Assembly (NCBI GenBank): GCA_964535385.1
Contig: CAZHSY010000001.1
Location: 29,007-93,006, forward strand
Origin: an uncultured Candidatus Saccharibacteria bacterium
Lineage (GTDB): Bacteria; Patescibacteriota; Saccharimonadia; CAILAD01; GCA-016700035
DNA: 64,000 bases
Direction: 5' to 3'
Positions 7,547 to 57,753 of this stretch are shown piece by piece; positions within the stretch are counted from its first letter, which is position 1, and each line of letters starts with the position of its first letter. A program made the translations under genes and the position numbers. The notes below the pieces were generated by a model. That model ran no database searches and was not told where the DNA came from. It saw only the letters and a program-made list of their open reading frames with translations.

Positions 7547-8773
7547 ATGTCAAAGTCACCCCCTGACCACCGACTGCCAGAATTTCGCCCCTTAGCCGAC
7601 CGTTTACGTCCTCAAAAAGTTAGTGACATGGTTGGTCAAAGCCAAGTCATTGGTTCTGGCGGCTTTATTCGTCAGCTCATCGATAAGGGCGAGGCCACGT
7701 CACTTATATTCTGGGGCCCTCCTGGATGCGGCAAGACGACGCTAGCCCGCATCATTGCCCAATCTGGTGATTATCACTTCGTCGAGATCTCTGCCGTCAC
7801 AGCCAGCAAGGCTGACGTTGTCCGGGTGATCACCGAAGCCCGTGACATGCAAGCTTTGCGACAACGCACCCTGCTCTTCGTTGATGAAATCCATCGCTTT
7901 AATAAAGCCCAACAAGACGCCTTCCTGCCCGTCATCGAAGATGGAACCATCATTCTCATCGGTGCCACGACTGAGAACCCAAGCTTCGAGGTCATTAGCC
8001 CCCTTCTGTCTCGCAGTCGAGTAGTCGTCCTGGAGGCTATTCCTAAGTCGGCCCTACTTCGGCTCCTGCAACGGGCCGCCAAGACTTACCCAGAGTCTCA
8101 ATTTGAACCCACTGCCCTCAAGGCCCTGGCCGAGCTAGCCCAGGGTGACGCTCGCACTGCGCTTAATGGCCTCGAGACGGCCGTGCAAATCAGTCCTATG
8201 CATATCACACTCGAATCCATTAAGCAGGCCATGCAGCACTCGCTAGCTCACTACGATAAATCTGGCGAGTATCACTACAACACCATCTCGGCGTTCATCA
8301 AATCAATTCGCGGCAGCCACGTTGATGCCGCCCTCTTCTATCTCTTCCGCATGATCAAAGGCGGTGAAGATCCGAAGTTCATTGCTCGCCGCCTTATTAT
8401 CTTGGCTTCCGAAGATATCGGCATGGCGGCCCCTGCCGCACTCAACCTCGCCACGAGCTGCTTCATGGCCGTCGAGCGAGTTGGCTTGCCCGAATGTGAG
8501 TACACCCTAGCCCACACTACTATCGCGCTGGCTAAGGCGCCCAAAAGTCGAGCTGTTGCCGACGCCATGAGCCAGGCTAAGCAGTCGGTTAAGAGCCATC
8601 CGACCGCCGAGGTTCCGTTAGAACTACGCAACGCGCCAACACAGCTTATGAAGGACCTCGGCTATGGCAAGCATTACAAATGGCAGGCCAATTTTCAGGC
8701 TCCGAGTGGCTTCCTGCCAGAGGAAATAGGAAATAGCCGGTTCTATTTTGAGCCTAAAGAAGACAACGCTTAA
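7547..8773 (+). CDS. rarA: replication-associated recombination protein A (AAA+ ATPase RarA/MgsA)
   Basis: 408 aa. Walker A GPPGCGKTT, a Walker B motif, and the conserved C-terminal MgsA domain. Confidence 0.9.
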   Translation: MSKSPPDHRLPEFRPLADRLRPQKVSDMVGQSQVIGSGGFIRQLIDKGEATSLIFWGPPGCGKTTLARIIAQSGDYHFVEISAVTASKADVVRVITEARDMQALRQRTLLFVDEIHRFNKAQQDAFLPVIEDGTIILIGATTENPSFEVISPLLSRSRVVVLEAIPKSALLRLLQRAAKTYPESQFEPTALKALAELAQGDARTALNGLETAVQISPMHITLESIKQAMQHSLAHYDKSGEYHYNTISAFIKSIRGSHVDAALFYLFRMIKGGEDPKFIARRLIILASEDIGMAAPAALNLATSCFMAVERVGLPECEYTLAHTTIALAKAPKSRAVADAMSQAKQSVKSHPTAEVPLELRNAPTQLMKDLGYGKHYKWQANFQAPSGFLPEEIGNSRFYFEPKEDNA

Positions 8774-23823: not shown

Positions 23824-23913
23824 TGGCGGAGAGAGAGGGATTCGAACCCTCGATACGGTTACCCGCATACACGCTTTCCAAGCGTGCTCCTTCAGCCACT
23901 CGGACACCTCTCC
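23824..23913 (-). tRNA. tRNA-Ser (anticodon GGA)
   Basis: Reverse complement reads GGAGAGGTGTCCGAGTGG...CTTGGAAAG...GGTTCGAATCCCTCTCTCTCCGCCA. It has a long variable arm and an encoded CCA. Confidence 0.8.
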
Positions 23914-33234: not shown

Positions 33235-35138
<1,904 letters not shown>

Positions 35139-35212: not shown

Positions 35213-35239
35213 TTAGCACTCTCAATAGTCGAGTGCTAA
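35213..35239. promoter_or_regulatory. CIRCE element (HrcA operator)
   Basis: TTAGCACTC-tcaatagtc-GAGTGCTAA, a perfect match to the CIRCE consensus, just downstream of the groES promoter. Confidence 0.9.
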
Positions 35240-35243
35240 ATCC

Positions 35244-35272
35244 AGTATAGAAATCTGATGGGCGACCGTCAA
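35244..35272 (-). promoter_or_regulatory. groESL sigma70 promoter
   Basis: On the minus strand: TTGACG, a 17 nt spacer, TATACT, then 4 nt before CIRCE. Confidence 0.7.
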
Positions 35273-35332
35273 GTAATAAAAAGAACCCCCGATCGAAATC
35301 GGGGGTATGAGACAAGATATTTGGACCTTGTC

Positions 35333-35758
35333 TCAGGATTCGGCCGCCGCCTCGGTCACTCTTGGAGGTAGCGGCTCGTCGAGGTTAAAGCTCCCTTCAT
35401 AGTCGGGGAACTGGATCTCGACAGAGCACGTTTTCTGCAACAGTGCAGGTGGCCCAGCCTCCACAACTGCAGCGAAGTGGAAGTGCTGGGCGTCAACACT
35501 GACTGCTCCATCGACAGAACGAAGCTCGCCCAGGCGAACTTCATCCTCCAAGGGAATGGCTTCGTTGTCATCGCTGAAGAAGTGAATGAAGATGCTGTAC
35601 GGTGCCGAGCCTGTGGCCAACGCCATCAACAACTTCTCTCGAGTTTGGGCGCTTCGAAGGCGCCAATGCTGTCGTTCCATGAAGGACCTTTCTGGTGTAG
35701 AGGGCCCAGCCGCAGACGCGGCCGGGCCCTGATGATCAGGACTTGGGTTGCTGACCAA
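35333..35758 (-). CDS. hypothetical protein (high-GC)
   Basis: 141 aa ORF. A terminator hairpin lies at 35283-35304. Confidence 0.4.
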   Translation of the reverse strand: MVSNPSPDHQGPAASAAGPSTPERSFMERQHWRLRSAQTREKLLMALATGSAPYSIFIHFFSDDNEAIPLEDEVRLGELRSVDGAVSVDAQHFHFAAVVEAGPPALLQKTCSVEIQFPDYEGSFNLDEPLPPRVTEAAAES

Positions 35759-36839
35759 CCTGCAACTGGAGTTGCTGATCGGTACCAGAGTCGCCTCCGA
35801 CGATCACCACACAGTTCGGGGTTGCGCCGCCCTGAGGTGGAGCATCCTTGCAGGCCTGAAGCAGTTCTTGCTGAGACTGGATCTGGCGCTCGGCGGAATA
35901 GCCAGGCTGACTGTAGAGCTCGCCGGCGTGAGCCGCCTTGGAGCGTTCCAGATCTACCCGTGCATCCTCCACACGCTGCTCATCAGCGATTCTGGCCAAC
36001 TCGGCAGAGGACTTCTCAGCGTTGTCACGTCGCTGCGTGAGCAAGGACTGTGCTTCGGGACTGGTCAAGGAGTTGAAGACAACCGTGAACGGTTCGCACT
36101 TGCCACCACTCGAGATGATCGCCGTAGAGCAGAAGATGTGCAGGTCCTCTGACATACCCATGATGGAGGGCAGCTCCTTGAAGGCCCGATCAGCGATCTG
36201 CTTGGCAATCTCCGGCCACTTGGACGGATCATTGATCACGAAAACATCGTAGAGTGGGACGACCTGAACGTAGGCGTGTTCCAGGGCTTTGTTGAGGCTC
36301 TCACGCAACATGTTCATCCAACCCGGATCGGACGACATGGCTTGTTCCTTGGGATCATCGGACTCGTTGTCCTCACCCGTGGTGCAGTTGTACTTCTGGC
36401 AATACTGATAGAAGGCGAAGAGCGCCCGGCAGGCGCCATTCTTGTCTTCTCTCAGACACTCATCAGTACCGCCATCGGGTCGGTTGATCGCGAAGTAGGT
36501 GATGAATGAACCATGCACCGTGTAACCAGGTGTCTTGCCATCATCAGACGGCTTCGACGGAGCCATCAGCTCCTTCTGACTATCTGCGCCATCGACGTCC
36601 TGGATGTTCCAGTTCCGAGCGTTGGCGTAGATGTATTCGACATCGTCGTCAGAATCCTTGCTGACCTCGTTGCCAGGCATGGCGATCTTCTTGACCTCGC
36701 GTGCGTCGCCAGTTCCCGCACCAAGCACGTAAGCCATGCGGTAGGGTGTCGGCTTAGCCGTGGAACATGCCACGAGCAGCACACCGAGCACTGCCAGGCA
36801 GAGCAAAGCTCCACCGATCCTGCGGGTTTTCATCTTCAC
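35736..36839 (-). CDS. secreted lipoprotein, hypothetical
   Basis: 367 aa. Signal peptide plus lipobox (LLVACSTAKP). High-GC. Confidence 0.5.
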   Translation of the reverse strand: MKMKTRRIGGALLCLAVLGVLLVACSTAKPTPYRMAYVLGAGTGDAREVKKIAMPGNEVSKDSDDDVEYIYANARNWNIQDVDGADSQKELMAPSKPSDDGKTPGYTVHGSFITYFAINRPDGGTDECLREDKNGACRALFAFYQYCQKYNCTTGEDNESDDPKEQAMSSDPGWMNMLRESLNKALEHAYVQVVPLYDVFVINDPSKWPEIAKQIADRAFKELPSIMGMSEDLHIFCSTAIISSGGKCEPFTVVFNSLTSPEAQSLLTQRRDNAEKSSAELARIADEQRVEDARVDLERSKAAHAGELYSQPGYSAERQIQSQQELLQACKDAPPQGGATPNCVVIVGGDSGTDQQLQLQVGQQPKS

Positions 36840-37246
36840 TGTCCTCTCTGTTGGGTTCGTGGGTACTGCTGAACTTCTTCATCATCCTCATCGACTGGTA
36901 GCCCGAGTTTGTCGTGCTCCAGCTTGTTGAGAAGCTGACGAATTTGCTTGTAATCGTTGCCCATGGAAATCTCAACCGTTGGTTCCTCATCAGCAAAGTC
37001 AACGACCCGCTTCAAAAGTTCCGTAGCCCGGTTGAACATCACTAGCAACTCTTCTTGCGAATAGCGGTGTCCGTAGGGCGCCATGTGCGCATCCCAATCG
37101 AGCTGCTTAAGGCGAAGCTCGTGAATGCGTTCCTGTTTACGCTCATGTGCGTCGTACCAGGTCTTGATCCCCCATCCTGCTAGGACGAGGAGAACGACGG
37201 CCAGCACGATCCAAATAGGAGCATACATAGCCAAATATTTAAGCAT
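36836..37246 (-). CDS. membrane-anchored hypothetical protein
   Basis: 136 aa. N-terminal TM helix (PIWIVLAVVLLVLAGWGI). Confidence 0.45.
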   Translation of the reverse strand: MLKYLAMYAPIWIVLAVVLLVLAGWGIKTWYDAHERKQERIHELRLKQLDWDAHMAPYGHRYSQEELLVMFNRATELLKRVVDFADEEPTVEISMGNDYKQIRQLLNKLEHDKLGLPVDEDDEEVQQYPRTQQRGQ

Positions 37247-37419
37247 ACCCCTCCTCCCAGAGAGTCATTGTGTAGGTGCGGATACAGCGGTAACGGTCAC
37301 TGAGCCGGAGCTATCGTATCGATTAAGCTCATCCCTGGCTCCCTCAACCAAAAACAGAGATCAGTTAATCTTAAAAACGTAAGGTAAAGTATAATATTTA
37401 CCTAATTATGTCAAGTAAT

Positions 37420-37655
37420 GACTGCAACAAGTAGGGCTTGTTGCCACCCTGAGCGGTCCCGTTATCCACTCATCACTCTGCTCGTGTTCTGTAAAAATCG
37501 TTTTCAGCGCTTGATGAATGGACAGAAAGATCAGGATTTTGGGTAAAAAAACACCGCTTGCCGCGGACCTAAGGCTTAGTCCTGGGCGAAACGGGAATTT
37601 CGATACCTATAGCGTATTTAACTGTAAGGGTAGTATAGCACGTTTCGTCAAGTTT
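37420..37655 (-). repeat. structured 5' leader element, copy A (duplicated upstream of two membrane-protein genes)
   Basis: About 85% identical to 39647..39895 in two conserved blocks around a diverged middle. A minus-strand promoter, TTGATA-17-TATACT, lies at about 37631-37665. Long-range complementarity UCCCGUU/AACGGGA suggests an RNA fold. Confidence 0.6.
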
Positions 37656-37764
37656 ATCAAGCTTTTCATCAAGAAATGGTGGTGAGTTAATCAAAAAGAA
37701 AACCCCTACGAAAAGTAGGGGTGGGTGGTGGGTGAAGCCCGAAGGCCCCACCCACCACAAGTGG

Positions 37765-39534
37765 TTAGCCAGTAGCAGACGATCGGCGATGACGTTCCTG
37801 GTTGAGGCGCGTCAGTTCGTCGAGCGTGGCGTCGAGCTTGCTCTGAAGATCTGCATCCGAGAGCGTAGCCAGATCGCCTGACGCCGGGGTAGTGGGATCT
37901 GCCACCTCCCCCGGATCCTGCTCGGACGGCGTGCCGCTGTACAGCACCCGCCCGATTTGGCCGCCGTTGAGCTCCATCGCCTGATCAAGCTGACCAGGAC
38001 GGATGCGAAGCAAGTAGCGCGGCTGCCCGGATCGAACCGCGAAGGCCGACCAGGTACCATCCTCTGCTGGGATGAACTCTTGCAACTCCCCTTCCTGCCC
38101 CTTGTTGAGGAAGGCCGGGTCGATACGCGAGAGGACATCGCGAGCGCGTCGCTCCAAGTCCTGCTCGGTGAGCAGTCCCTTGTCATCCTCGTTATGCACT
38201 TGGACACGCATGGGATTGAACTGACCGTAGGTCACTTGGTTCGAAGCCACCACCGACAGGGCGATGATGGTCTCGGCGCGACTAGCGCGCGGTGTCAACG
38301 GCGTGGCGTAGTAGACCTGTTGATCGAGGTTCGAGCGCAGCACATAGTCGGCTGCATTGCCCTTATTCGACGACAGGTCTACAGGGTCGAAACCAAACGA
38401 AGCATCGGCCCACTTGCGGCCAGCGCCCCAGTTGATCATCTCCCGTTGTTTCTGCGCCACACTGATAGGATAGACCGGGCCCTCGAGCTCGCCGGCCTTA
38501 ACCGAGTGCTTGTACTCGATGACCGGTTCACCCGACTCCGAGCCACGCACCACGATGACACCAGCTGGCACCTGGATACTCCGGGCACCATACCAGCGGT
38601 CTACCGTTGCCGGAAGCACGATGGTCGGCACGTCACCCTTGGCGCAATAGCCGTAGGCGTTGTACAGATCCCAGACTACGTCAGGAATCTCACGACGGAT
38701 CTGATCCGCAAGCGAGTTACCGAAATCGCCTGTCAGGGCGTAGTTCAGTTTGTGGTCACCTTCGAACCGGCACTGGTGCACCGTCTCCGGTGTCCCGTCC
38801 CACTCGACGATCGAGTCGATGTGAACCCGACGACCATTGCCGTCTCGGATGGCCGACCAACGTCCAGCGCCGCCCTCAGCGGGCAGATAGGCGTAGGTCT
38901 CGTCCAAGATGTCGGCTTTGGAGTCGCCGGTGGAGCGCTCGGCCATGACCTTCTGGGCACCTACCAGCGAGGCGGGACGCTCATCGAAACCTGCTTCCAG
39001 GAAGTCGATGGGACCCGTTTTCACATGGGCCTTGGGGTCATGATCACCGTCGAGATTAGCCAGGATACGCGGTTGCGCGTCCTTGTCGGCGTACTCGATG
39101 GTGATGGAGTTGACGAACGGCCGTGGCTCCAGCTTGAAGTCAGTCGTGAACGACATGACGACCAAGAGAGCGGCCAGACCAGCAGCGATACCAGACACCA
39201 CCACGTTGGTGAGTCCAGCCCGTGCATAGAACCGATCGACGGCTTTATCCTCTTCGGAAAGCTCTCGGGCGTAGAACCGGTTGCGCTCCGGCCTGGAACT
39301 GTAGGCCACGAAGGCCGCCAAGCCAAAGCACGCTGCCACAACGATCGACCAGAAGATCTGGCCAGAACGCGAGGTGAGCACGAAGCCCACCTCGTAGTAA
39401 CGCCGGGCGTTGAACCCAGCTTGCGGCCAGAGGGCGCCGATCAGAGCGCCGACTGCCAGCCACAGCACTGTGATGGCGAAAAACGCCGCCACAGTGCTGG
39501 CTATGCCGTACACGTACGGCCGGTATTTCTTCAT
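37765..39534 (-). CDS. large membrane protein, hypothetical (high-GC)
   Basis: 589 aa. Ribosome-binding site GGAGGGAAGATG. N-terminal TM helices (IASTVAAFFAITVLWLAVGALIGALW, and more). The 531 aa plus-strand ORF is judged to be antisense artefact. Confidence 0.55.
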   Translation of the reverse strand: MKKYRPYVYGIASTVAAFFAITVLWLAVGALIGALWPQAGFNARRYYEVGFVLTSRSGQIFWSIVVAACFGLAAFVAYSSRPERNRFYARELSEEDKAVDRFYARAGLTNVVVSGIAAGLAALLVVMSFTTDFKLEPRPFVNSITIEYADKDAQPRILANLDGDHDPKAHVKTGPIDFLEAGFDERPASLVGAQKVMAERSTGDSKADILDETYAYLPAEGGAGRWSAIRDGNGRRVHIDSIVEWDGTPETVHQCRFEGDHKLNYALTGDFGNSLADQIRREIPDVVWDLYNAYGYCAKGDVPTIVLPATVDRWYGARSIQVPAGVIVVRGSESGEPVIEYKHSVKAGELEGPVYPISVAQKQREMINWGAGRKWADASFGFDPVDLSSNKGNAADYVLRSNLDQQVYYATPLTPRASRAETIIALSVVASNQVTYGQFNPMRVQVHNEDDKGLLTEQDLERRARDVLSRIDPAFLNKGQEGELQEFIPAEDGTWSAFAVRSGQPRYLLRIRPGQLDQAMELNGGQIGRVLYSGTPSEQDPGEVADPTTPASGDLATLSDADLQSKLDATLDELTRLNQERHRRSSATG

Positions 39535-39646
39535 CTTCCCTCCAGGGGGTGATAGGTACAGGCATAACGATATCGGTCGTTATCACCGTGGCTTTCCTTG
39601 CGGTCAGCTCACATCTGATCTCATTACAAGAAATCACACGCGAGAT

Positions 39647-39895
39647 GACTGCGTGCAACAAGTAGGGCTTGTTGCCACCCTGAGTGGTCCCGTTATCCAC
39701 TCATTACTCTGCTCGTCCAGATGAGACTGTCGTCTTCAGCGCTTAATCAGTGGATAGTGTCTGAAAATTTTGGCAAAAAAAATACCGTCTGCCGAGGACC
39801 TAAGGCTTAGTCCAAGAGCGAAACGGGAATTTCGATACCTATAGCGTATTTAATTGTGAGAGTATCTTAGCGTACTTTGCGTATTTCGTCAAGTA
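39647..39895 (-). repeat. structured 5' leader element, copy B
   Basis: Direct repeat of 37420..37655. A minus-strand promoter, TTGACG-17-TAAGAT, lies near 39860-39890. The leader is about 280 nt long and ends at the ribosome-binding site of gene 37765..39534. Confidence 0.6.
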
Positions 39896-40839
39896 CTTTT
39901 GACAGACTTTTTTGGAGACCGTTTGCGAGTACGAATAACTGGCTTGACCGTAGCTGGCTGCGCAATTCCCCGCAGTACCTCCCACTGCTTACGGATATCT
40001 TGGCTATGATCATAGGCATGCAAGTTGATAATGTCTGGGCGCAGCCTTACGAAGGCTGCCTCTTGCAAATTATAACCCTGCTGGCTGACGTGCTTCAGAT
40101 GTATCCGATAGCCACGATCATCCCACTGGTCTAGCCAGCGCCAACCAGACCGATGAATCGTTTGACCACCGCGGGGCCATAGATGGTTTGGCGTACCCTC
40201 TCGCACCACTGGAGAGGTTTGTAAAACCTCCGACCAAGCTCGAGAACCATACACGGGTATAGCGGTGAGTAGCCAATAGATCAGATGCGGATGGGTTTCT
40301 CTCATGATGTCTCGATCCACATTCACCCCACGGGTTGTCAGGAACATCTCAAGGCTAAAACGCCCCGAGCGCACACCTGGTCGCTCTAATTGCCCGACCA
40401 TACGCAGCCACTGCCAAATAATAGCCTTAGCAACAAAGATTCGATTTGCAGTAGTCACCACCAGCAGGTCAATATCACTGGCATCAGATACATTACCGTA
40501 CGCAGCACTATTAATCACCACGATCGACTTCACGCACGGTATCAGACCGAGCCACCGCGCCCAAAACCGAGCCTTCTTCAGTAGCGTCTCCTGGAGTAAG
40601 TACTGTGAATCACTACGTGTGTAGCGGTGCCCATGTAATCCATACTCGTTCCCCTGGCGTTGGAGACGCTTTTCATTCATCAACTCTCGCACAGCCGATA
40701 CAATTGCCAGGTGATTGGCTCGGACAGGTAAGAATTCCACCAAGCGCTCCTGAGTAATCATGACATTGAAAACCGCGTAATAGGCCACCATATCCAGGAT
40801 GGCTTCGCGAACGGCTTGGTGTTTGGCCTCAGCTTGCAT
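39889..40839 (-). CDS. nucleotidyltransferase-domain protein (Pol-beta superfamily)
   Basis: 316 aa. Motif INSAAYGNVSDASDIDLLVV (G-S...D-x-D). Confidence 0.45.
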   Translation of the reverse strand: MQAEAKHQAVREAILDMVAYYAVFNVMITQERLVEFLPVRANHLAIVSAVRELMNEKRLQRQGNEYGLHGHRYTRSDSQYLLQETLLKKARFWARWLGLIPCVKSIVVINSAAYGNVSDASDIDLLVVTTANRIFVAKAIIWQWLRMVGQLERPGVRSGRFSLEMFLTTRGVNVDRDIMRETHPHLIYWLLTAIPVYGSRAWSEVLQTSPVVREGTPNHLWPRGGQTIHRSGWRWLDQWDDRGYRIHLKHVSQQGYNLQEAAFVRLRPDIINLHAYDHSQDIRKQWEVLRGIAQPATVKPVIRTRKRSPKKSVKST

Positions 40840-51492: not shown

Positions 51493-51585
51493 GGAGAGGT
51501 ACCCAAGTGGCTGAAGGGGCTGGTTTGCTAAACCGGTAGGGGGGCGCAAGTTCCCGCGAGGGTTCGAATCCCTCCCTCTCCGCCA
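51493..51585 (+). tRNA. tRNA-Ser (anticodon GCT)
   Basis: GGAGAGGTACCCAAGTGG..CTGGT-TTGCTAA-ACCGG, a long variable arm, GGTTCGAATCCCTCC, and CCA encoded. Confidence 0.8.
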
Positions 51586-51842
51586 GATAAAATGGACATG
51601 GCCTTTAGGTCGTGTCCATTTTACTTTGCGATGAAAGGTGAATGAACCCTCGGGTTCGGTAATCAATTTGTGTAGAACTAGAGTAACTTTAGTTATCTTT
51701 GTCGAGCAGTGAAGATTATATCCTTCCGACTACGTCACAAGGAGCACTCCCCCCTCTCATATGTGCATGCTTGCACCTCAGGATAACTATGCTACAATAG
51801 GTGTAATTACGAACAAAAGCCATACAATACAGGAGGAGAAGA

Positions 51843-52133
51843 ATGAACAAACAATCGTTTCCCACCGGTACCCCGTTCCAGCAAAAAGTCTGGTCGGAGA
51901 TTGCCAAGATTCCTAGAGGCACTACTATTACATATACCGAATTAGCTATTAGGGTAGGGAAGCCAAGAGCCGTCCGAGCTGTGGCGTCGGCTTGTGGCAA
52001 AAATCCATTTATAGGTGAGATTCCCTGTCATCGCGTCATCGCCTCCGATGGCTCTCTCGGCGGCTACAGCGGGGAAGGGGGAGTGGCTCGCAAACGCCAG
52101 CTCCTCGTCGAAGAAGGCGCCATCTCGGCTTAG
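51843..52133 (+). CDS. methylated-DNA--protein-cysteine methyltransferase (Ogt/MGMT DNA-binding catalytic domain)
   Basis: 96 aa. Active site PCHRVI. An upstream promoter TTGCAC-16-TACAAT and an AGGAGGAG ribosome-binding site. Confidence 0.7.
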   Translation: MNKQSFPTGTPFQQKVWSEIAKIPRGTTITYTELAIRVGKPRAVRAVASACGKNPFIGEIPCHRVIASDGSLGGYSGEGGVARKRQLLVEEGAISA

Positions 52134-52194
52134 CCTCTCGAAAAATGCCTCGAAACCAGATATAATCAGCTGCGTTACTATCTCAATCAGACCT

Positions 52195-52287
<93 letters not shown>

Positions 52288-52393
52288 GAGAAGGCCCTGA
52301 TTTTATCAGGGTTTTGTCATCTGGCTAAGTTGTGAATTGAACCCATGGGGTTCGATAATCTCTTTACGATTATTTTGCTATCATAAAAACACC

Positions 52394-54349
52394 ATGCATC
52401 TCCCCCTCCAACCATATGGCTGGTTCGTAGCAGCACTCATGAGTACCGGTTTCATGGGCCTCTATACACTCGTTGTTTGGGCGGGTCTGAAGCACCTTAA
52501 AGTCGGCCTAAACCGAGGTGAAAACCTGGCTTTAAGCTTAGTAATTGGGATTTTAGCCTCTAGCTGGATTACCTTTGGTACCTGGTATGTTGCTGGCCAA
52601 GCTTGGGGGACAATGATCAGTTGGCTCATACCGCTCTGGATCATAGTCTGGCAGCGTGCCGCCATACTGAGGCTCACGGTCGACGCCTGGAAGGCGCTTA
52701 AACGCGTTTTGCGACACCCTCAACGCCTATGGTTATTGCGAGCTGGCTTTTGGGCTATCTTAACGCTTATAGCCGCCTGGATGTGCTACACGCACTTCTT
52801 ACAACCCTCCCCAGATGGCTGGCGCTCGGCTGGCAATACCTGGGCAGATCTAGCGCTTCATATGTCACTAGCCAGTCACTTTGTCGTTCAGGGCGTGCAC
52901 AACTTGATGCTTCCTGTCTTCCCGGCTGCAAAACTAACTTACCCCTTCCTGGTCGACCTTCAAGCGGCCCAGCTATACCAGACCGGCCATAGTTGGCAGG
53001 TTGCCTTTGGCTACACCTCTTGGCTACTGATCATGAGCAGCTGCTACCTCTTATACCGTATCGCCACCCGCATCACCGGCCGTAAGCTGGCCGGTATCAT
53101 TTGGGTTGTCCTAATCCTCTTGGCCGGTACAGCCGCTGGCGTAATACCGCTCTGGCGTGATCTTTTGAGTGGTAGCCTAGAAGCGACTAAAGATTACTCG
53201 CACCTAAGCGTTGGGGCAGCCGCCAGTCAAGAGCACTTTGCTAATCTCGTCACTTCGCATCTACTACCACAGCGCAGCTACCTGATGGGCTTGGCTGTTG
53301 CAAGTAGTTGTGTACTCCTCCTGCAAAGCTTTTTTGAGATCTTAAAGAATACAAAACTCCAACACTGGCTGGTGCTCGGTATCATTATCGGACTCCTCCC
53401 ACTGGCTCATGTCCATTCAGCTTTTGTCGCGGCCGGCCTGCTCGGTGGCGCCGCGATCTGGCTCAGTATTAAAAAACAGCCCCAAGCCCGCCTAGCATGG
53501 CTTGGGGTACTTATCGCTGGTGTAATTGCACTACCGCAGCTTATATGGCAGTTTGGTGGCAGTTTTCACGGCGGCTTCTCATATTGGCACCTTGGCTGGA
53601 TGACACCCGAGGGGGGGAGTACCTTGGTCTTCTGGTGGATTAATTGGGGACTCCTGCTTGTGTTTATTCCATTAGCCATCTGGCGGGCCAGTCGTCGGCA
53701 GTGGTCGCCTATTCTATGGTTACTCATTCTCGAAGCCGTCCTGATAATGATCGCCTGCAATCTCTACATCTTCCAGCCTAACCCCTGGGACAATATGAAG
53801 TTCATTACTTATGGCTATATTTGGTTGACGCTTCCAGTAGCTTGGCTCTTGGCAGACTTCACTCGACACGGATGGCCAGAGAAGATCCTCGTAGGAGTCA
53901 CCTTGCTCATCATCACAACGCCCGGCATGCAGTCCGTCTGGCTAGAGGGGACGCAAAACTACGTTTTTCTCAGTAATGGCGATCTGAAACTAGCTGACTA
54001 CGTGAGTCAAAACACCGCTCCGATCACCACGATACTGACCTCCGATCGACACAATCATCCAGTATCCACCCTGACTGGGCGGACGATTATTATGGGCTAC
54101 CGAGGCTGGCTGAGTAGTTATGGCATCAATTACGCATCAACCGAAAACGACTTAGATGCGATCTGGCTACAGGAAGAAACAACTGCTAATTTGATTAAAA
54201 AATACCAAGTTCAATACATCGTGCTCGACGACACCGAAGCCACCGAGAAGGGTGTCGATATTGAGAGACTCAACCAAACCTACTCTGAAATTTATTATCA
54301 AGACGGCTGGCATATCTGGGCGGTTGACCAAGTGGTCGGACAACGATAG
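52394..54349 (+). CDS. large polytopic membrane protein (possible GT-C-type glycosyltransferase)
   Basis: More than 12 hydrophobic helices. Likely start MHLPLQPYGW; the track start at 52337 lies inside a conserved intergenic palindrome. Confidence 0.45.
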   Translation: MHLPLQPYGWFVAALMSTGFMGLYTLVVWAGLKHLKVGLNRGENLALSLVIGILASSWITFGTWYVAGQAWGTMISWLIPLWIIVWQRAAILRLTVDAWKALKRVLRHPQRLWLLRAGFWAILTLIAAWMCYTHFLQPSPDGWRSAGNTWADLALHMSLASHFVVQGVHNLMLPVFPAAKLTYPFLVDLQAAQLYQTGHSWQVAFGYTSWLLIMSSCYLLYRIATRITGRKLAGIIWVVLILLAGTAAGVIPLWRDLLSGSLEATKDYSHLSVGAAASQEHFANLVTSHLLPQRSYLMGLAVASSCVLLLQSFFEILKNTKLQHWLVLGIIIGLLPLAHVHSAFVAAGLLGGAAIWLSIKKQPQARLAWLGVLIAGVIALPQLIWQFGGSFHGGFSYWHLGWMTPEGGSTLVFWWINWGLLLVFIPLAIWRASRRQWSPILWLLILEAVLIMIACNLYIFQPNPWDNMKFITYGYIWLTLPVAWLLADFTRHGWPEKILVGVTLLIITTPGMQSVWLEGTQNYVFLSNGDLKLADYVSQNTAPITTILTSDRHNHPVSTLTGRTIIMGYRGWLSSYGINYASTENDLDAIWLQEETTANLIKKYQVQYIVLDDTEATEKGVDIERLNQTYSEIYYQDGWHIWAVDQVVGQR

Positions 54350-54372
54350 CCTAAGATAAAGAGGGAGAAGAT

Positions 54373-54696
54373 ATGCGCAAACACGTTAATGGCTTTATAG
54401 AATTCATCCGCGAACAGGGCGTGGTTGGCTTGGCAATTGGTTTTATCCTTGGAGCAGCAGTAGCAAAGGTTGTCTCGTCTTTGGTCTCGGATATTATTAA
54501 TCCACTGATTGGACTCTTGCTTGGCAGTACTTCTGGCCTGAAAGAAGTCAGTGTGGCTGTGGGTGGAGCCAAACTAATGGTGGGTAATTTTCTAAGTGTC
54601 TTGCTTGATTTTGCCATTGTAGCTGGCGTCATCTATCTGATCGTTAAGGTCTTGCGGCTCGACCGTCTCGACCGGAAGAAAGATGACAAAAAATAA
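54373..54696 (+). CDS. mscL: large-conductance mechanosensitive channel
   Basis: 107 aa (MRKHVNGFIEFIREQGVVGLAIGFILGAA...), two TM helices, and a charged C-terminus. Confidence 0.85.
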   Translation: MRKHVNGFIEFIREQGVVGLAIGFILGAAVAKVVSSLVSDIINPLIGLLLGSTSGLKEVSVAVGGAKLMVGNFLSVLLDFAIVAGVIYLIVKVLRLDRLDRKKDDKK

Positions 54697-54758
54697 TCAC
54701 CAGATAAGAACGCGGGCGTAGATTTTTTCCGTAAGCTGAAGCATAATAGTGCTAGATT

Positions 54759-55490
54759 ATGCCTCCAGCCACACCCCAGCCAAATAGCGTGATGCCACCG
54801 ACACCGGAGGTGCCGGCTGGTGGAGTAGTTCAGCCGGATCTCGGTCAACCACCTGTAATTAATCCCGCACCAGCACCGGTTTTTGGAACCCCACTCGAGC
54901 AAATACCAATTACAAGTCCTAGTACTCCACCAACCTTTGGTGCTCAATCCAATGACCCAACGCTAGTCTCAGAAAACTCAGAACAGAGTGGTGAACCCGA
55001 ACAAACGGAAGCGGCACCCGATGATAGTACCGCACCACTCTTAGCTTGGGAAAATCAGCCAGCCAGCCAAGGCGCTCATCGGCCAACTATCTGGTACGTG
55101 ATTCTGGGGATTATTTTTGCCGGCAGTATTATCGCCGCCATTCTGACTCGCGCTTGGCTATTTATTCCTCTGGGGATACTCGTACCCTGGGCCTTAGCTA
55201 TGTATGCTGGGCGAGGCGAGGCCAGTCATCGTTATGCCCTGTATCCAGGCGGTATCGAGATCGATGACAAATTTACACCCTACGATACCTATAAAGCCTA
55301 TTTTTATGTACACGAAGATGGGCGATCGGTCTTCGAGCTCATTCCTACCCAGCGTCTGGGAGCTCTCGTAACCCTGCTGGCATCGCCGAACAATGTCGAT
55401 GATATCGATGATATCCTCAGTAGTGTTTTGCCAGAGACTGAACCACAGGGCAATGTTGGCGAATCAGTTTTCAAACGCTTGAAGTTCTAA
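54759..55490 (+). CDS. proline-rich membrane protein, hypothetical
   Basis: 243 aa. Pro-rich N-terminus followed by two TM helices. Confidence 0.45.
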   Translation: MPPATPQPNSVMPPTPEVPAGGVVQPDLGQPPVINPAPAPVFGTPLEQIPITSPSTPPTFGAQSNDPTLVSENSEQSGEPEQTEAAPDDSTAPLLAWENQPASQGAHRPTIWYVILGIIFAGSIIAAILTRAWLFIPLGILVPWALAMYAGRGEASHRYALYPGGIEIDDKFTPYDTYKAYFYVHEDGRSVFELIPTQRLGALVTLLASPNNVDDIDDILSSVLPETEPQGNVGESVFKRLKF

Positions 55491-55647
55491 CCTTTACGAC
55501 TCCACTGAAATACTGTAGAATAACCTCTGCTTTTGCACCTTCGATTCCAAAACAACCAATGGAGCGCTTGATTACTCAAACCATCTGTTTTTTTCAAAAT
55601 GGAGTAATGCAAAATGATTGGTTGTTTTGAAATTAAAAACTAGATGT

Positions 55648-55690
55648 GGGCTCGTAGCTCAGCTGGATGTTTCGCTTTAGCGAATTACAG
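55648..55690 (+). pseudogene. truncated tRNA 5' fragment (tandem partial duplicate of downstream tRNA-Arg with its upstream spacer)
   Basis: aaattaaaaactagatgtg-GGCTCGTAGCTCAGCTGGAT then diverges. The same leader plus 5' half recurs at 55747-55786 before the intact tRNA. Confidence 0.4.
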
Positions 55691-55765
55691 AAGGCAACGC
55701 ACTATCCTTACCGCGAGGAAGAGAAGAACTACGAAAGATGCCACAAAAATTAAAAAACTAGATGT

Positions 55766-55842
55766 GCGCTCGTAGCTCAGCTGGATAGAGCGCCAGTTTG
55801 CGGTACTGGAGGTCGCAGGTTCAAATCCTGCCGAGCGCACCA
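55766..55842 (+). tRNA. tRNA-Arg (anticodon read as GCG)
   Basis: GCGCTCG-TA-GCTCAGCTGGATAGAGC-G-CCAGT-TTGCGGT-ACTGG-AGGTC-GCAGGTTCAAATCCTGC-CGAGCGC-ACCA. Confidence 0.75.
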
Positions 55843-56370
55843 TTGACTAGAAGCTAGGGTTTAGAATTTAGGAGTTAGAAAATAGTTCTGATTTTGTCGT
55901 CACACTGGTTTCCAAGCCCTAGCCTCTAACTCAATTTGTCTTGTGTATTCGAGGAGAGGTACTGTCCTCGCTCGATCGCACCAGAGAAATCTGGTATAGT
56001 CAGGCAAGCATGCGTGTACCACCAGGGAAGTGGCCTCACAACCCACGAAAGTGTAAGCAGACAATAAAGATCGGTTACCGCCTTTATTGTCAGGTAGAGA
56101 AGCTTCACTGCACGCGTACTTCGTCGCTGCCACGTCCACCATACCTGCCGGGCTACAGACCCACGCGGACAGACGTGGCTAGTTCGCACCTTTAAAAGAT
56201 CTGGGTAACCAGATGTATGCTTGAGATACATATCCACTCTGCGGAGTAGTTGCCCGCCAGCAGTGGAGAGAGGCTTAAGTCTACCTTGATCAATCTCGCC
56301 CAAGGGTACAAGAGGTTGGTTAAAATGACTAGGGATAGGTGGCACTCAAGAACCATTTATCCTGTCCACG

Positions 56371-56428
56371 GACTGTAGCTTAAGGCAAAACGCCTACGGA
56401 GATAAAGGTTCGATTCCTTTCAGTCCGA
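56371..56428 (+). other. tRNA-like minihelix (acceptor stem plus T-arm, no anticodon/D arms)
   Basis: GGACTGT...AAAGG-TTCGATT-CCTTT-CAGTCC. A canonical T-loop with a 6-7 bp acceptor pairing and only a short internal hairpin (AGGC-aaaac-GCCT). Confidence 0.3.
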
Positions 56429-56482
56429 CGATCACGAGAGAGCTCGGTGTCGCCAACGCCACGTTAAGAGTAATCACGTGAC

Positions 56483-56557
56483 GAGGGGGTAAGCTCAAGT
56501 TGGTAGAGCACCCCGCCACGGCGGGGAGGTATGCTGGTTCGAATCCAGCCCCCTTCA
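56483..56557 (+). tRNA. tRNA-like gene with atypical 6-nt anticodon loop (possibly Arg-ACG)
   Basis: GAGGGGG-TA-AGCTCAAGTTGGTAGAGC-A-CCCCG-CCACGG-CGGGG-AGGTAT-GCTGGTTCGAATCCAGC-CCCCTTC-A. The D and T arms are good. The anticodon arm is 1 nt short, and no CCA is encoded. Confidence 0.4.
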
Positions 56558-56744
56558 CGATCGTTCCTTCTTCTGGTGAGCGCCAGAAGAGCTTTGTCGA
56601 CAAGACAAAAACCGGCCTGAGAGAGTACTCTCTCAGGCCGGTACTTCTTTCTTATTTAGAAAATCAGTTTTTATCATTGCGAAAAAAATATCGCTTGCGC
56701 TATAGTAGATTCAATACTTAGGATAATTAAAGGAAATTTTCAGC

Positions 56745-57491
56745 ATGCCGCCCAAGAAAGCACCGACAGAATCAGTAAAGGCTCAAGCAGCCAGTCCTGC
56801 AGGTGCGACTGCACTTATGCTTGACTACCCTGGAGCCTTTGGTCTATTCAAATCCAGTAAAGAAGCCATGGTACGCATTTTCGGTACCATAGTTTTGCTC
56901 TACCTCATCATACTAGCCATTGATATTGTCACCAGCATTATCACTGGTGTTATTGGGCTCGACAACTCAATACGCTCATTGATTTATAATATTATTAGCG
57001 GCGGCATTCAGATCGTTGCGATACCGATGTGGACCTACATTATGCTGCGCTCAGTCTACGGTTATAGGGAGACTGTTGGGACTGCCCTTGAGTATGCGAG
57101 GCCAAATATCCTTCGGTTCTTTCTAGCTAGTCTACTAGCGGGCCTAGCTATGGTTGGTGGGCTACTTCTCTTCATTATCCCGGGCATTATCTTCGCGATG
57201 CGCTTCTCAATGACTAATTATATTCTGGTTGATAACCCAGAGCTGGACGCCGTAGAAGCCATGCGCCGAAGCTGGCGCATGACCAAGGGTAATCTTAGTA
57301 AAATCTGGGGGATCGTCGGTGTAACTGTTCTCATGTTCATTCCTGTCATTACAATCATTGGGATTATCCCAGCTATCATTCTGCTCTACTTCTACGCCGC
57401 CGCCGGTACTATTCTCTACACCTATCTCAAGCAGCAGCCTGTCGAGCCTATAGCAGCCCCAACTCCTCAACCAGCCGTAGCCGCGAAATAG
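56745..57491 (+). CDS. polytopic membrane protein, hypothetical
   Basis: 248 aa with about six TM helices and a short Pro/Ala C-terminal tail. Confidence 0.5.
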   Translation: MPPKKAPTESVKAQAASPAGATALMLDYPGAFGLFKSSKEAMVRIFGTIVLLYLIILAIDIVTSIITGVIGLDNSIRSLIYNIISGGIQIVAIPMWTYIMLRSVYGYRETVGTALEYARPNILRFFLASLLAGLAMVGGLLLFIIPGIIFAMRFSMTNYILVDNPELDAVEAMRRSWRMTKGNLSKIWGIVGVTVLMFIPVITIIGIIPAIILLYFYAAAGTILYTYLKQQPVEPIAAPTPQPAVAAK

Positions 57492-57583
57492 CGACTAGTA
57501 ATTAGGGGCTAGAAGTTAGAAATTAGTAACTTTATCAGATATACTATCTCCTATCGTCTAGTTTCTAACTTCTAAGTTATTGC

Positions 57584-57660
57584 GCGCCCGTAGCTCAGCT
57601 GGATAGAGCGTTGGTTTCCGGTACCAAAGGTCGGGAGTTCGAATCTCTTCGGGCGCACCA
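57584..57660 (+). tRNA. tRNA-Arg (anticodon CCG)
   Basis: GCGCCCG-TA-GCTCAGCTGGATAGAGC-G-TTGGT-TTCCGGT-ACCAA-AGGTC-GGGAGTTCGAATCTCTT-CGGGCGC-ACCA. Confidence 0.85.
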
Positions 57661-57661
57661 C

Positions 57662-57753
<92 letters not shown>

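What the first reader, a model, noticed from the sequence alone, without database searches (positions are those of the whole stretch)
37420..39895. Duplicated ~240 nt structured 5' leaders with their own promoters in front of two high-GC membrane-protein genes
Two direct repeats (37420-37655 and 39647-39895) share two highly conserved blocks of about 60 nt around a diverged roughly 90 nt core. Each repeat is preceded, on the minus strand, by a good sigma70 promoter (TTGATA-17-TATACT; TTGACG-17-TAAGAT). Each is followed 150-300 nt later by a membrane-protein gene (36836-37246; 37765-39534). The conserved blocks contain local hairpins (CAACAAG-nnnnn-CTTGTTG; CCAC-ucagg-GUGG). A long-range pairing (UCCCGUU with AACGGGA) encloses the variable core. 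Conserved ends around a variable centre is the signature of a folded regulatory RNA (riboswitch or other cis-regulator) rather than a protein-coding duplication. I could not match it to a known riboswitch class.
Basis: seen in the sequence. Interest (0 to 1): 0.6.

Follow-up and report, generated by a model that had tools for sequence, protein, structure and literature searches.

The report
New structured leader RNA in Saccharibacteria
The two repeats are copies of a previously undescribed, folded 5' leader RNA found only in one group of tiny episymbiotic bacteria (Saccharibacteria). It sits between a strong promoter and various cell-envelope genes and looks built to switch those genes on or off.

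Summary
The repeat is real. It is two paralogous copies, sense on the minus strand, of a 330-380 nt 5' leader. Each copy has its own sigma70-type promoter. Neither the window nor 13 related loci match any Rfam 15 family. I found about 37 members, all in Saccharibacteria/Saccharimonadia genomes or metagenomes.

The architecture is shared:
- **Module 1:** an invariant 29-nt 5' strand, then a long covarying hairpin with an AAGCCU loop and a U-tract. This is an intrinsic terminator at about +95. 93.7% of cells pair, 11 of 12 pairs show compensatory change, and 0 of 500 shuffles reach the observed value.
- **Module 2:** a three-segment toggle of two mutually exclusive helices. Both helices are kept in 14 different sequence variants.
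- **Module 3:** a small hairpin next to the ribosome-binding site (RBS), whose loop pairs with nucleotides just upstream, followed by RYACCU and the Shine-Dalgarno (SD) sequence.

The genes downstream differ between genomes. They include a 589-aa four-helix membrane protein, membrane-protein plus lipoprotein pairs, and an SPFH protein.

The best reading is a cis-regulatory attenuator or riboswitch-like leader whose signal is unknown. This is a new RNA family of a known kind. Interest is moderate to high.

The parts
39864..39892 (-). Promoter of copy A (TTGACG-17-TAAGAT). The likely transcription start is at about 39857.
   Evidence: Promoter scan. A TTGACA-17-TATAAT promoter lies at the same distance from the conserved RNA in nearly all of the ~30 family members listed.
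39775..39857 (-). Module 1 of copy A. Invariant 5' strand 39830-39857. Terminator-stem 5' strand CCCGUU 39822-39827. Inner hairpin GGAC-UAAGCCUUAG-GUCC 39796-39813. Stem 3' strand 39785-39789. U8 tract 39775-39782.
   Evidence: Covariance-model hit of 103 bits. Coordinates. Single-sequence fold of -17.7 kcal/mol. Covariation.
39678..39756 (-). Toggle of copy A. Segment 1 at 39744-39756, segment 2 at 39694-39706, loop UAACGGGA at 39688-39695, segment 3 at 39678-39687. Segment 2 can pair with segment 1 or with segment 3, but not both.
39655..39675 (-). Hairpin H4 of copy A (GCAACAAG-CCCUA-CUUGUUGC).
   Evidence: Homologs carry compensatory variants: GCAGCAAG/CUUGCUGC, GGCAGCCGGC/GCCGCUGCC and GGUAGCUAGUC/GACUGCUGCC.
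39535..39589 (-). RBS-proximal module of copy A. ACGG plus hairpin AUAACGA-CCGAUA-UCGUUAU at 39564-39589, where loop CCG can pair with the upstream CGG. GUACCUA at 39553-39559. SD GGAGGG at 39538-39543.
37765..39534 (-). Gene for a 589-aa membrane protein: an N-terminal helical bundle, a beta-rich ectodomain and a C-terminal helix. Function unknown.
   Evidence: ORF. No Pfam, NCBIfam or PDB sequence match. 347 representative homolog clusters. AF2 pLDDT 87.7. No fold match.
37693..37722 (-). Intrinsic terminator that ends operon A (ACCCCUACUUUUCGUAGGGGU followed by a U-tract).
37632..37660 (-). Promoter of copy B (TTGATA-17-TATACT, with TG before the -10 hexamer).
37545..37625 (-). Module 1 of copy B. 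Invariant strand 37598-37625. Inner hairpin 37565-37582. U7 tract 37545-37551.
   Evidence: Covariance-model hit of 100.6 bits. Fold of -21.3 kcal/mol. Coordinates.
37424..37524 (-). Toggle and hairpin H4 of copy B. Segment 1 at 37512-37524, segment 2 at 37463-37475, segment 3 at 37447-37456, H4 at 37424-37444.
37386..37414 (-). Sequence TTGACA-15-TATACT inside a 49-nt insertion that only copy B has. It may be a weak second promoter.
   Evidence: Pairwise alignment (columns 322-370). Coordinates. The promoter scan did not report it because the spacer is 15 nt.
37247..37308 (-). RBS-proximal module of copy B. CCGG plus a hairpin with loop ACCGUUA at 37285-37308. GCACCUA at 37273-37279. SD GGGAGGAGGGG at 37248-37258.
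35278..37246 (-). Operon B cargo. A 136-aa single-pass membrane protein (36836-37246), a 367-aa lipoprotein (35736-36839), a third ORF (35333-35758), then an intrinsic terminator (35278-35306).
   Evidence: Homologs of the lipoprotein occur elsewhere without the leader.

Best explanation
**What it is.** Each repeat is a complete copy of a clade-specific structured 5' leader RNA of Saccharibacteria (class Saccharimonadia). A strong sigma70-type promoter starts transcription about 12 nt before an invariant strand, ACAAYUUAAUAMGCUAUAGGUAUCGAAAA.

**Module 1.** A long three-part hairpin with an invariant AAGCCU loop follows the strand and ends in a U-tract. I read this as an intrinsic terminator at about +95. 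In most members I examined by eye I saw no second promoter, and the scan reports none in leader A. Expression of the downstream genes would therefore require read-through of this terminator (attenuation).

**Module 2.** In transcripts that read through, three segments form a toggle. The central GAGNGG pairs either with an upstream CCNCUC or with a downstream CCNCUC. The downstream copy abuts the next module.

**Module 3.** A small pseudoknotted hairpin, a conserved RYACCU and a partly sequestered SD follow. Together they probably set how efficiently translation starts.

**The signal.** Some signal recognised through the invariant 5' strand and loop would decide between termination and read-through. 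I lean towards a small molecule or ion (riboswitch) at about 0.4 and an RNA-binding protein at about 0.3.

**Shown versus inferred.** Shown: family membership, the promoter, the helices and their covariation, the U-tract, the mutually exclusive helices, and the variable cargo. Inferred: that the hairpin terminates transcription, that read-through is regulated, and what the signal is.
For: **Conservation independent of the pattern search**
- The leader lies upstream of orthologs of the 589-aa gene at 53-82% protein identity, found by protein look-up alone.
- The 5' strand is unchanged in all 9 such sequences.

**Family size**
- The genome scan gave 14 hits in Saccharibacteria or Patescibacteria plus 1 chance hit.
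- The metagenome scan gave about 15 true hits among 23.

**Module 1**
- Every one of the 31 sequences folded on its own gives a long hairpin closed by the P1 stem and followed by a U-tract. Most show the full P1/P1b/P2 shape.
- On the model-based alignment of 34 hits, 93.7% of cells pair and 11 of 12 pairs show compensatory change. No shuffle in 500 reaches this, and slid controls give 29-54%.
- Canonical intrinsic terminators end both operons in this genome.

**Toggle**
- Helix 1:2 is 92% paired, with 6 pairs showing compensatory change.
- Column 95 pairs with column 109 in 13 of 13 sequences, but with column 43 in only 6 of 13.
- The outer pairs 39-99 and 40-98 covary.
- Both helices are present in 14 sequence variants.

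**Other helices**
- Pseudoknot: 19 of 20 sequences have at least 3 Watson-Crick pairs between loop and upstream strand. The observed mean is 3.15 against 2.34 for shuffles, and 0 of 2000 shuffles reach it.
- H4 covaries.

**Whole-leader folding**
- z = -3.48 for copy A and -3.53 for copy B.

**Position**
- In every locus with enough downstream sequence, the element sits upstream of a membrane, lipoprotein or envelope-type ORF on the same strand.
Against: - No transcript data exist, so termination and read-through are unproven.
- No convincing conserved antiterminator was found. Nascent-transcript folds show only weak alternatives of -5 to -12 kcal/mol.
- The covariation counts for module 1 come from an alignment fitted to the model.
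- Part of the invariance of GCUAUAGGUAUCGA and AAGCCUUA in the scanned members is imposed by the search pattern. The loop does vary to AAGCCUAC and AAGCCUGA in protein-guided members.
- The pseudoknot is only 3-4 bp.
- The cargo proteins have no known function, so no ligand can be inferred.
- Most genomes may carry only one copy, which is unusual for a metabolite riboswitch.
Confidence: 0.65

Rival explanations
1. Module 1 is a stand-alone small RNA of about 95 nt with its own promoter and terminator. It acts in trans through its invariant 5' seed. The rest is simply the 5' UTR of a neighbouring gene, or the RNA has both roles.
For: - It has a strong consensus promoter, an invariant single-stranded 5' region, a hairpin and a U-tail, which is the classic sRNA layout.
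- Large contigs of 171-644 kb gave one exact-pattern match each.
- The window holds four sites complementary to 9-11 nt of the seed.
Against: - Conservation and covarying structure continue for another 100-450 nt, right up to the start codon of a same-strand ORF, wherever enough downstream sequence is held.
- The scan reports no second promoter in leader A of the window. I saw none by eye in other members.
- Of the complementary sites, the two I checked lie inside long ORFs. Their number is close to my rough chance estimate of about 2 for the 8-mer core.
Confidence: 0.12
2. The leader is a protein-operated switch. An RNA-binding protein binds the invariant strand and/or the AAGCCU loop and prevents termination, as in BglG/LicT-, PyrR- or ANTAR-type antitermination. 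It does not bind a small molecule.
For: - A long invariant stretch (29 nt) is not enclosed in a compact multi-helix junction.
- Only weak intrinsic antiterminator structures are seen.
- The leader is long and modular.
- The cargo is diverse and does not point to any metabolite.
Against: - No candidate RNA-binding protein gene is consistently linked to the element. The upstream 316-aa gene is absent from some loci (L013, L015, L023).
- From my own knowledge of those motifs, I see no RAT-, PyrR- or ANTAR-like pattern in the sequence.
- Some leaders carry an inserted aptamer-like domain, which is more typical of riboswitch architectures.
Confidence: 0.3
3. The leader is a physical stress sensor, such as an RNA thermometer. 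The RBS hairpin and toggle would melt or re-pair with temperature or ionic conditions, matching its usual place next to the heat-shock genes groES/groEL.
For: - In many loci the cargo lies directly upstream of groES/EL.
- The SD sits in small hairpins such as CCCCU-GAAA-GGGG and CCCUC-UAG-GAGGG.
- One cargo is an SPFH/Band 7 protein, a typical membrane-stress protein.
Against: - groES has its own promoter and a perfect CIRCE operator. Operon B ends at a terminator before it.
- From my own knowledge, thermometers do not need 29 invariant nucleotides, an early terminator or covarying long-range helices.
- No Rfam thermometer family matches.
Confidence: 0.08
4. Copy B is a decaying by-product of a segmental duplication or gene-cassette insertion and no longer regulates anything. 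The 136/367-aa operon would be driven by the internal TTGACA-15-TATACT.
For: - Copy B has a 49-nt insertion with a promoter-like sequence.
- Its second toggle unit is degenerate.
- Homologs of its lipoprotein cargo occur elsewhere without the leader.
- The closest relative (L002) lacks copy B altogether.
Against: - Copy B keeps an intact promoter, and module 1 scores 100.6 bits against 103 for copy A.
- It keeps a perfect 13-bp 1:2 helix, the 2:3 hairpin, H4, the RBS-proximal hairpin with CGG/CCG pairing and GCACCUA.
- It is only 79% identical to copy A and 80-82% identical to leaders of other genomes. It has therefore been maintained for a long time and is not freshly copied.
Confidence: 0.1
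5. The conserved promoter-proximal sequence is a DNA operator for a repressor, and the RNA structure is incidental.
For: - The invariant block begins at the transcription start.
- It contains a 6-bp palindrome, CTATAG, within an imperfect dyad, CGCTA-N4-TATCG (read directly from the sequence).
Against: - The left half of the dyad varies (C, A or T at position 12) without compensation.
- Four separate helices downstream show compensatory base changes, which DNA binding does not explain.
Confidence: 0.05

Closest known systems
Transcription-attenuating riboswitches whose sensor overlaps the terminator, for example the HMP-PP (thiS motif) riboswitch (my own knowledge; class mentioned in PMC8723152)
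   Same: - Both sit in cis in a 5' UTR.
- Both have an intrinsic terminator hairpin carrying highly conserved nucleotides in and next to it.
- Neither has a large separate aptamer in front of the terminator.
   Different: - There is no sequence or covariance-model similarity.
- Here a further 230-450 nt of conserved structure follows the terminator.
- The ligand is unknown and binding is untested.
ydaO/c-di-AMP riboswitch (Rfam RF00379; my own knowledge)
   Same: - Both are large, pseudoknotted leaders.
- Both stand in front of cell-wall or envelope and stress genes in Gram-positive-type bacteria.
   Different: - No hit to RF00379 at gathering score or at E<=10.
- The architecture is different.
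- The cargo here has unknown function.
T-box leaders (Rfam RF00230; my own knowledge)
   Same: - Both are long multi-domain 5' leaders with alternative helices.
- This leader contains GGGUGG, which resembles the T-box sequence.
   Different: - No T-box model hit.
- No specifier-loop architecture.
- The terminator comes first here rather than last.
- The cargo is not aminoacyl-tRNA related.
sRNAs derived from 5' UTRs by premature termination, for example riboswitch-derived SreA/SreB of Listeria (my own knowledge)
   Same: A promoter, a conserved 5' region and an early terminator could release a stable RNA of about 95 nt.
   Different: No evidence of trans targets was found. No transcript data are available.
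Orphan riboswitch candidates found by comparative genomics (Breaker-laboratory surveys: PMC6429828, PMC8632094, PMC11109978, PMC7266159)
   Same: Same type of evidence: conserved intergenic RNA, covariation, and consistent position upstream of genes.
   Different: - This motif is not in Rfam 15.
- Two of those surveys that I searched, PMC11109978 and PMC8632094, do not mention Saccharibacteria, TM7 or Patescibacteria.

Membership tests
Any Rfam 15 family (all curated riboswitch classes, T-box, ydaO, RNA thermometers, sRNAs) | The covariance-model score reaches the family's gathering threshold. | tested here: not met
   Only tRNAs pass in the window and in 11 related loci. At E<=10 in 37200-40000 and E<=5 in L025/L042, only chance-level hits appear, all far below their cut-offs.
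Intrinsic (Rho-independent) terminator / attenuator | A G+C-rich stem is immediately followed by a U-tract, and it lies between the promoter and the ORF. | tested here: met
   All 34 model hits have the P1 stem followed by at least 4 U within 0-3 nt. The distance from the promoter is fixed. The simple scan missed it because the enclosed loop is longer than 8 nt.
Intrinsic (Rho-independent) terminator / attenuator | A competing antiterminator structure or factor makes termination conditional. | tested here: inconclusive
   Nascent-transcript folds give weak alternatives. One is a CGAAA/UUUCG hairpin that holds the stem's 5' strand. Another pairs AGGU with ACCU. They are not uniform across subfamilies.
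Riboswitch (ligand-binding cis-regulatory RNA) | A conserved structured domain has covarying helices and highly conserved unpaired nucleotides. | tested here: met
   The 5' strand is invariant in 9 members found without the DNA pattern.
Riboswitch (ligand-binding cis-regulatory RNA) | An expression platform is present (a terminator and/or SD sequestration). | tested here: met
   A terminator at about +95. The SD lies in small hairpins.
Riboswitch (ligand-binding cis-regulatory RNA) | The RNA binds a small molecule or ion directly and selectively. | not testable with these tools
   This needs in-line probing, ITC or in vitro transcription. The gene context (orphan envelope proteins) suggests no ligand.
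Trans-acting sRNA gene | It is an independent transcription unit that is not tied to one downstream ORF. | tested here: not met
   In every locus with enough downstream sequence it is on the same strand as, and continuous in conservation with, the 5' UTR of a downstream ORF.
Remnant of a duplicated protein-coding gene | A reading frame or coding homology is conserved across copies. | tested here: not met
   The only ORFs in the repeat (42, 55 and 63 aa) are in different frames or are absent in the other copy. Indels between the copies are of 1, 1, 1 and 49 nt. The substitutions are compensatory within helices.
CIRCE/HrcA heat-shock operator | The inverted repeat TTAGCACTC-N9-GAGTGCTAA is present. 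| tested here: not met
   The only match in the window is at 35213-35239 in front of groES, not in the leaders.

The most novel reading that the evidence does not exclude
This is the first riboswitch class specific to the Candidate Phyla Radiation. Its sensor would be built from the invariant 5' strand and the AAGCCU loop embedded in a terminator. A downstream bistable toggle and pseudoknot would couple it to translation. The unknown small-molecule or ion signal might report host contact or envelope state, and would switch on interchangeable cell-surface gene cassettes in episymbiotic Saccharibacteria.
Probability: 0.3. Interest if true: 0.8.

Novelty: new member of a known kind. Interest (0 to 1): 0.62.

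Why it matters
Almost nothing is known about gene regulation in Patescibacteria/CPR. The literature I could search describes no native riboswitch or structured leader from Saccharibacteria.

This RNA is:
- strongly conserved;
- supported by covariation;
- tied to one promoter;
- placed in front of exchangeable envelope genes, which are the kind of proteins expected to mediate life on a host cell surface.

It offers three things. First, it is a concrete, testable handle on how these reduced bacteria sense a signal. Second, it is a candidate orphan riboswitch whose ligand could reveal new physiology. Third, it is a natural regulatory part for the genetic tools now being built for Saccharibacteria. 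PMC11665869 names riboswitches explicitly as a wanted tool.

Tried and rejected
**RNA-level ideas that failed**
- **Rfam matches:** none beyond tRNA.
- **Coding remnant or leader peptide:** the frames are not shared. The mini-ORFs AUG-AGC-GGA-UAA and AUG-AGG-GGA-UGA are not kept in other subfamilies (read).
- **K-turn / box C-D reading of GUGAUGAG...CUGA:** rejected. UGAUGA changes to UGGUGA together with a compensating U-to-C change opposite, so this is plain Watson-Crick pairing.
- **Trans targets of the 5' seed in the window:** 9-11 nt complements occur at about my rough chance estimate. The two I checked lie inside ORFs.
- **DNA dyad operator:** the half-site is not conserved.
- **Extended pseudoknot UA(U)AGG:CCUUA:** weakened, because the loop varies to AAGCCUAC and AAGCCUGA in protein-guided members. 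Only AGG(U):(G)CCU remains possible.
- **Long-range UCCCGUU:AACGGGA pairing:** possible in subfamily I, including with a second UCCCGUUA in toggle unit 2. It is absent from the other subfamilies and shows no compensatory change.

**Cargo function**
- A first AF2 model from 15 sequences was unusable, with pLDDT 52.7.
- The afdb50 library was unavailable.
- hhalign finds no link between the 589-aa family and the lipoprotein family.

**Limits of the family**
- There is no leader next to a 33%-identical homolog of the 589-aa protein.
- There is none next to homologs of the 367-aa lipoprotein.
- The RNA therefore marks a clade and a locus, not a protein family.
Full report
**1.

Repeat finding gives four collinear blocks offset by 2231-2232 nt: 63 nt at 97%, 54 nt at 89%, 47 nt at 87% and 28 nt at 82%. 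A 21-mer and a 31-mer from the repeat occur only at these two places, where shuffles expect 0. The sense strand is the minus strand.

The layout, read 5' to 3' on the minus strand, is:
- Promoter A, TTGACG-17-TAAGAT, at 39892-39864.
- Leader A.
- The ATG at 39534 of a 589-aa ORF, and an intrinsic terminator at 37722-37693.
- Promoter B, TTGATA-17-TATACT, at 37660-37632.
- Leader B.
- The ATG at 37246 of a 136-aa ORF, which overlaps a 367-aa lipoprotein ORF and is followed by a third ORF.
- A terminator at 35306-35278.
- groES, with its own promoter and a perfect CIRCE operator at 35213-35239.

This layout rests. The pairwise alignment shows that similarity continues, more weakly, to both start codons, and that copy B has a 49-nt insertion.

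**2. It matches nothing known**

In the window and in 11 related loci, only tRNAs reach an Rfam 15 gathering score. Relaxed searches of 37200-40000 and of two further loci give only chance-level hits. ORFs inside the repeat are short and lie in different frames in the two copies. Literature searches found no description of a native structured leader or riboswitch in Saccharibacteria/Patescibacteria.

**3. It is a family**

- **Protein-guided members.** The 589-aa protein has 15 close relatives. Their loci are syntenic: phosphoglucosamine/phosphomannomutase-like gene, 316-aa gene, this gene, then groES/EL. The leader is conserved upstream of them, promoter included, at protein identities of 82, 64, 63 and 53%.
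- **Pattern-guided members.** I scanned for GCTATAGGTATCGA-N15-32-AAGCCTTA. Among species-representative genomes this found 14 MAGs labelled Saccharibacteria, Saccharimonadia or Patescibacteria group, plus one chance hit inside a Bacillota gene. A slightly looser pattern in metagenomes found 23 loci, of which about 15 are true members.
- **Independent check.** Three further members were reached only through protein look-up. All carry the same invariant 5' strand. Two have a variant loop (AAGCCUAC and AAGCCUGA) that the pattern would have missed. The invariance of the 5' strand is therefore not an artefact of how members were collected. In the loop, only AAGCCU is truly fixed.
- **Limits.** A homolog of the 589-aa protein at 33% identity has an unrelated 5' region. 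The RNA is restricted to one clade.

**4. Anatomy**

*Promoter.* Nearly all of the ~30 distinct members listed have a TTGACA-17-TATAAT-type promoter at a fixed distance, preceded by an A-rich stretch.

*Module 1 (about nt 1-95).* It begins with the strand ACAAYUUAAUAMGCUAUAGGUAUCGAAAA. A long hairpin follows, made of P1, P1b and P2, with loop AAGCCU(UA)N. A tract of 4-8 U ends it.
- Each of 31 sequences folded alone gives a long hairpin closed by P1, and most show the full P1/P1b/P2 shape. Energies run from -16 to -28 kcal/mol. The window copies give -17.7 and -21.3.
- A covariance model built from 11 sequences finds all 34 members at E<=3e-6 and nothing else. In the window, with filters off, it finds only the two copies.
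- On that alignment 93.7% of cells pair and 11 of 12 pairs show changes on both sides. No shuffle in 500 reaches the observed values. Sliding the partners drops pairing to 29-54%.
- Caveat: that alignment is fitted to the model. The single-sequence folds are the independent check.
- This genome ends both operons with canonical hairpin-plus-U terminators. Module 1 should therefore act as a terminator too. This step is inferred.

*Module 2, the toggle.* A central segment (e.g. UGAUGAGCGGAUA) can pair with an upstream segment (UAUCCACUCAUCA, helix 1:2). Alternatively its GAGYGG can pair with a downstream CCRCUC (helix 2:3).
- Within the best-sampled subfamily, helix 1:2 is 92% paired, with 6 pairs showing compensatory change. 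These include the two outermost pairs.
- The variable position of the shared stretch pairs with its 2:3 partner in 13 of 13 sequences. It pairs with its 1:2 partner in only 6 of 13.
- Both helices have therefore been maintained, and they cannot coexist.
- Across 14 sequence variants from at least 8 subfamilies the sequences differ (CUCAU/AUGAG, CCAUU/AAUGG...), yet both helices are always present: 7-16 pairs for 1:2 and 5-9 pairs for 2:3.
- Some leaders carry two such units.

It follows the toggle and covaries.

*Module 3.* It consists of a short hairpin, for example AGCGA-CCGUU-UCGCU.
- Its loop is complementary to 3-4 nt just upstream. The variants seen are CGG/CCG, CCG/CGG, CAG/CUG, ACG/CGU, GCG/CGC, UCGG/CCGA and UGGC/GCCA.
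- 19 of 20 sequences have at least 3 Watson-Crick pairs. The observed mean is 3.15 against 2.34 for shuffles, and 0 of 2000 shuffles reach it.
- RYACCU follows in about 20 of 24 members.
- The SD comes next, often inside a small local hairpin.

*Whole leaders.* Leaders A and B fold better than dinucleotide shuffles, with z = -3.48 and -3.53.

**5. What lies downstream**

The cargo differs between members:
- **The 589-aa family:** 10 loci.
- **A 170-aa single-pass membrane protein plus a ~195-aa lipoprotein:** at least 9 loci.
- **An SPFH/Band 7 protein:** L020, Pfam E = 5e-22.
- **Other membrane-protein plus lipoprotein pairs:** L015, L023, L033 and window copy B.

Further points on the cargo:
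- Leaders that are 98% identical precede unrelated cargo in L018 and L024.
- Copy B is 79% identical to copy A and 80-82% identical to leaders of other genomes. It is an old paralog or an acquired copy, not a recent duplicate.
- Relatives of the copy B lipoprotein occur elsewhere without any leader.
- Profile comparison finds no relation between the 589-aa family and the lipoprotein family.
- The 589-aa family is large, with 347 representative clusters. A 73-sequence alignment gives a confident model, pLDDT 87.7 and pTM 0.81. The model shows an N-terminal helical bundle, a beta-rich ectodomain and a C-terminal helix.
- That model has no meaningful match in PDB or BFVD. Its function stays unknown.

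The common theme is cell-envelope proteins, often located immediately upstream of groES/EL but transcribed separately from it.

**6. Mechanism**

*Shown:*
- a strong promoter;
- an invariant 5' strand and loop flanking covarying stems;
- a terminator-shaped hairpin with a U-tract in every member;
- two mutually exclusive helices downstream;
- a small pseudoknot and a conserved RYACCU next to the SD.

The scan reports no second promoter in leader A of the window, and I saw none by eye in most other members. Copy B has a weak TTGACA-15-TATACT in its insertion.

*Inferred:* transcription stops at about +95 unless a signal allows read-through. In read-through transcripts, the toggle and pseudoknot set RBS accessibility.

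*Possible partners of the invariant AGGU:*
- the loop GCCU (picked by RNAalifold);
- the C-rich 5' strand of the terminator stem, which would act as an antiterminator;
- the RYACCU near the SD.

None of these can be tested by covariation, because one side never varies.

*My estimates for the sensor:* small-molecule or ion riboswitch about 0.4, RNA-binding protein about 0.3, and thermosensor, sRNA or other for the rest.

**7. Comparison and novelty**

It works like known attenuators and riboswitch leaders. The closest in spirit are terminator-embedded aptamers such as the HMP-PP riboswitch, and large pseudoknotted envelope-linked leaders such as ydaO. I make both comparisons from my own knowledge.

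It fails the membership test for every curated RNA family. Its order of parts is unusual, with the terminator first and the toggle and pseudoknot after it. It also behaves as a portable regulatory module placed in front of exchangeable cargo.

I classify it as a new RNA family of a known kind.

Noticed in passing
L006 about 7830-7890; L025 (two tandem copies), L029, L042 and L047, inside their leaders: A self-contained domain of about 55 nt (CGGUGCAGUUUGAAAAUAGCCUCGGUUAACCAGUAGGCAAUGAAAUAGACACCGC) is inserted between hairpin H4 and the second toggle unit in some leaders. L025 has it twice in tandem. It has no Rfam match, and only 5 copies are available, so covariation cannot be judged. It could be a separate aptamer-like module. 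It is absent from the window.
   Followed up: partly
window 35213-35239 (CIRCE) and 35240-35290 (promoter), minus strand upstream of groES 34869-35138: A perfect CIRCE inverted repeat, TTAGCACTC-N9-GAGTGCTAA, sits behind a TTGACG-17-TATACT promoter in front of groES/groEL. This means HrcA-type heat-shock control in this Saccharibacterium, separate from the leader operons.
   Followed up: yes
L018 versus L024: Leaders that are 98% identical precede unrelated genes in two MAGs: a 170-aa membrane protein plus a lipoprotein in one, and a 589-aa membrane protein in the other. This suggests recent cargo exchange behind a fixed leader, or that both genomes carry two copies as the window does.
   Followed up: partly
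window 37765-39534 (-): The 589-aa protein belongs to a sizeable uncharacterised family of 347 clusters at 50% identity. Its AlphaFold model is confident, but the beta-rich ectodomain matches nothing in PDB or BFVD. One distant member (P0025) has a sub-threshold N-terminal match to a type IV secretion pilin domain.
   Followed up: partly
L011 and L020: These two leaders are about 540 nt long. They contain two successive RBS-proximal hairpin/pseudoknot modules, so part of the leader has been duplicated internally.
   Followed up: no
window 51493-57748 (+): A cluster of seven tRNA genes on the plus strand, including an unusually short 60-nt hit at 56369-56428 (42 bits). One further tRNA lies at 23827-23913 (-).
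   Followed up: no
window 39889-40839 (-): The 316-aa gene immediately upstream of promoter A has no family match. It recurs directly upstream of the leader in many, but not all, related loci. Its stop codon overlaps the -35 region of promoter A.
   Followed up: no
L048 4300-7320: The closest relatives of the copy B lipoprotein lie in a run of small genes next to RNA ligase, RNase T-like and AAA ATPase genes. This looks like a mobile or phage-like region. The copy B cargo may be of foreign origin.
   Followed up: no
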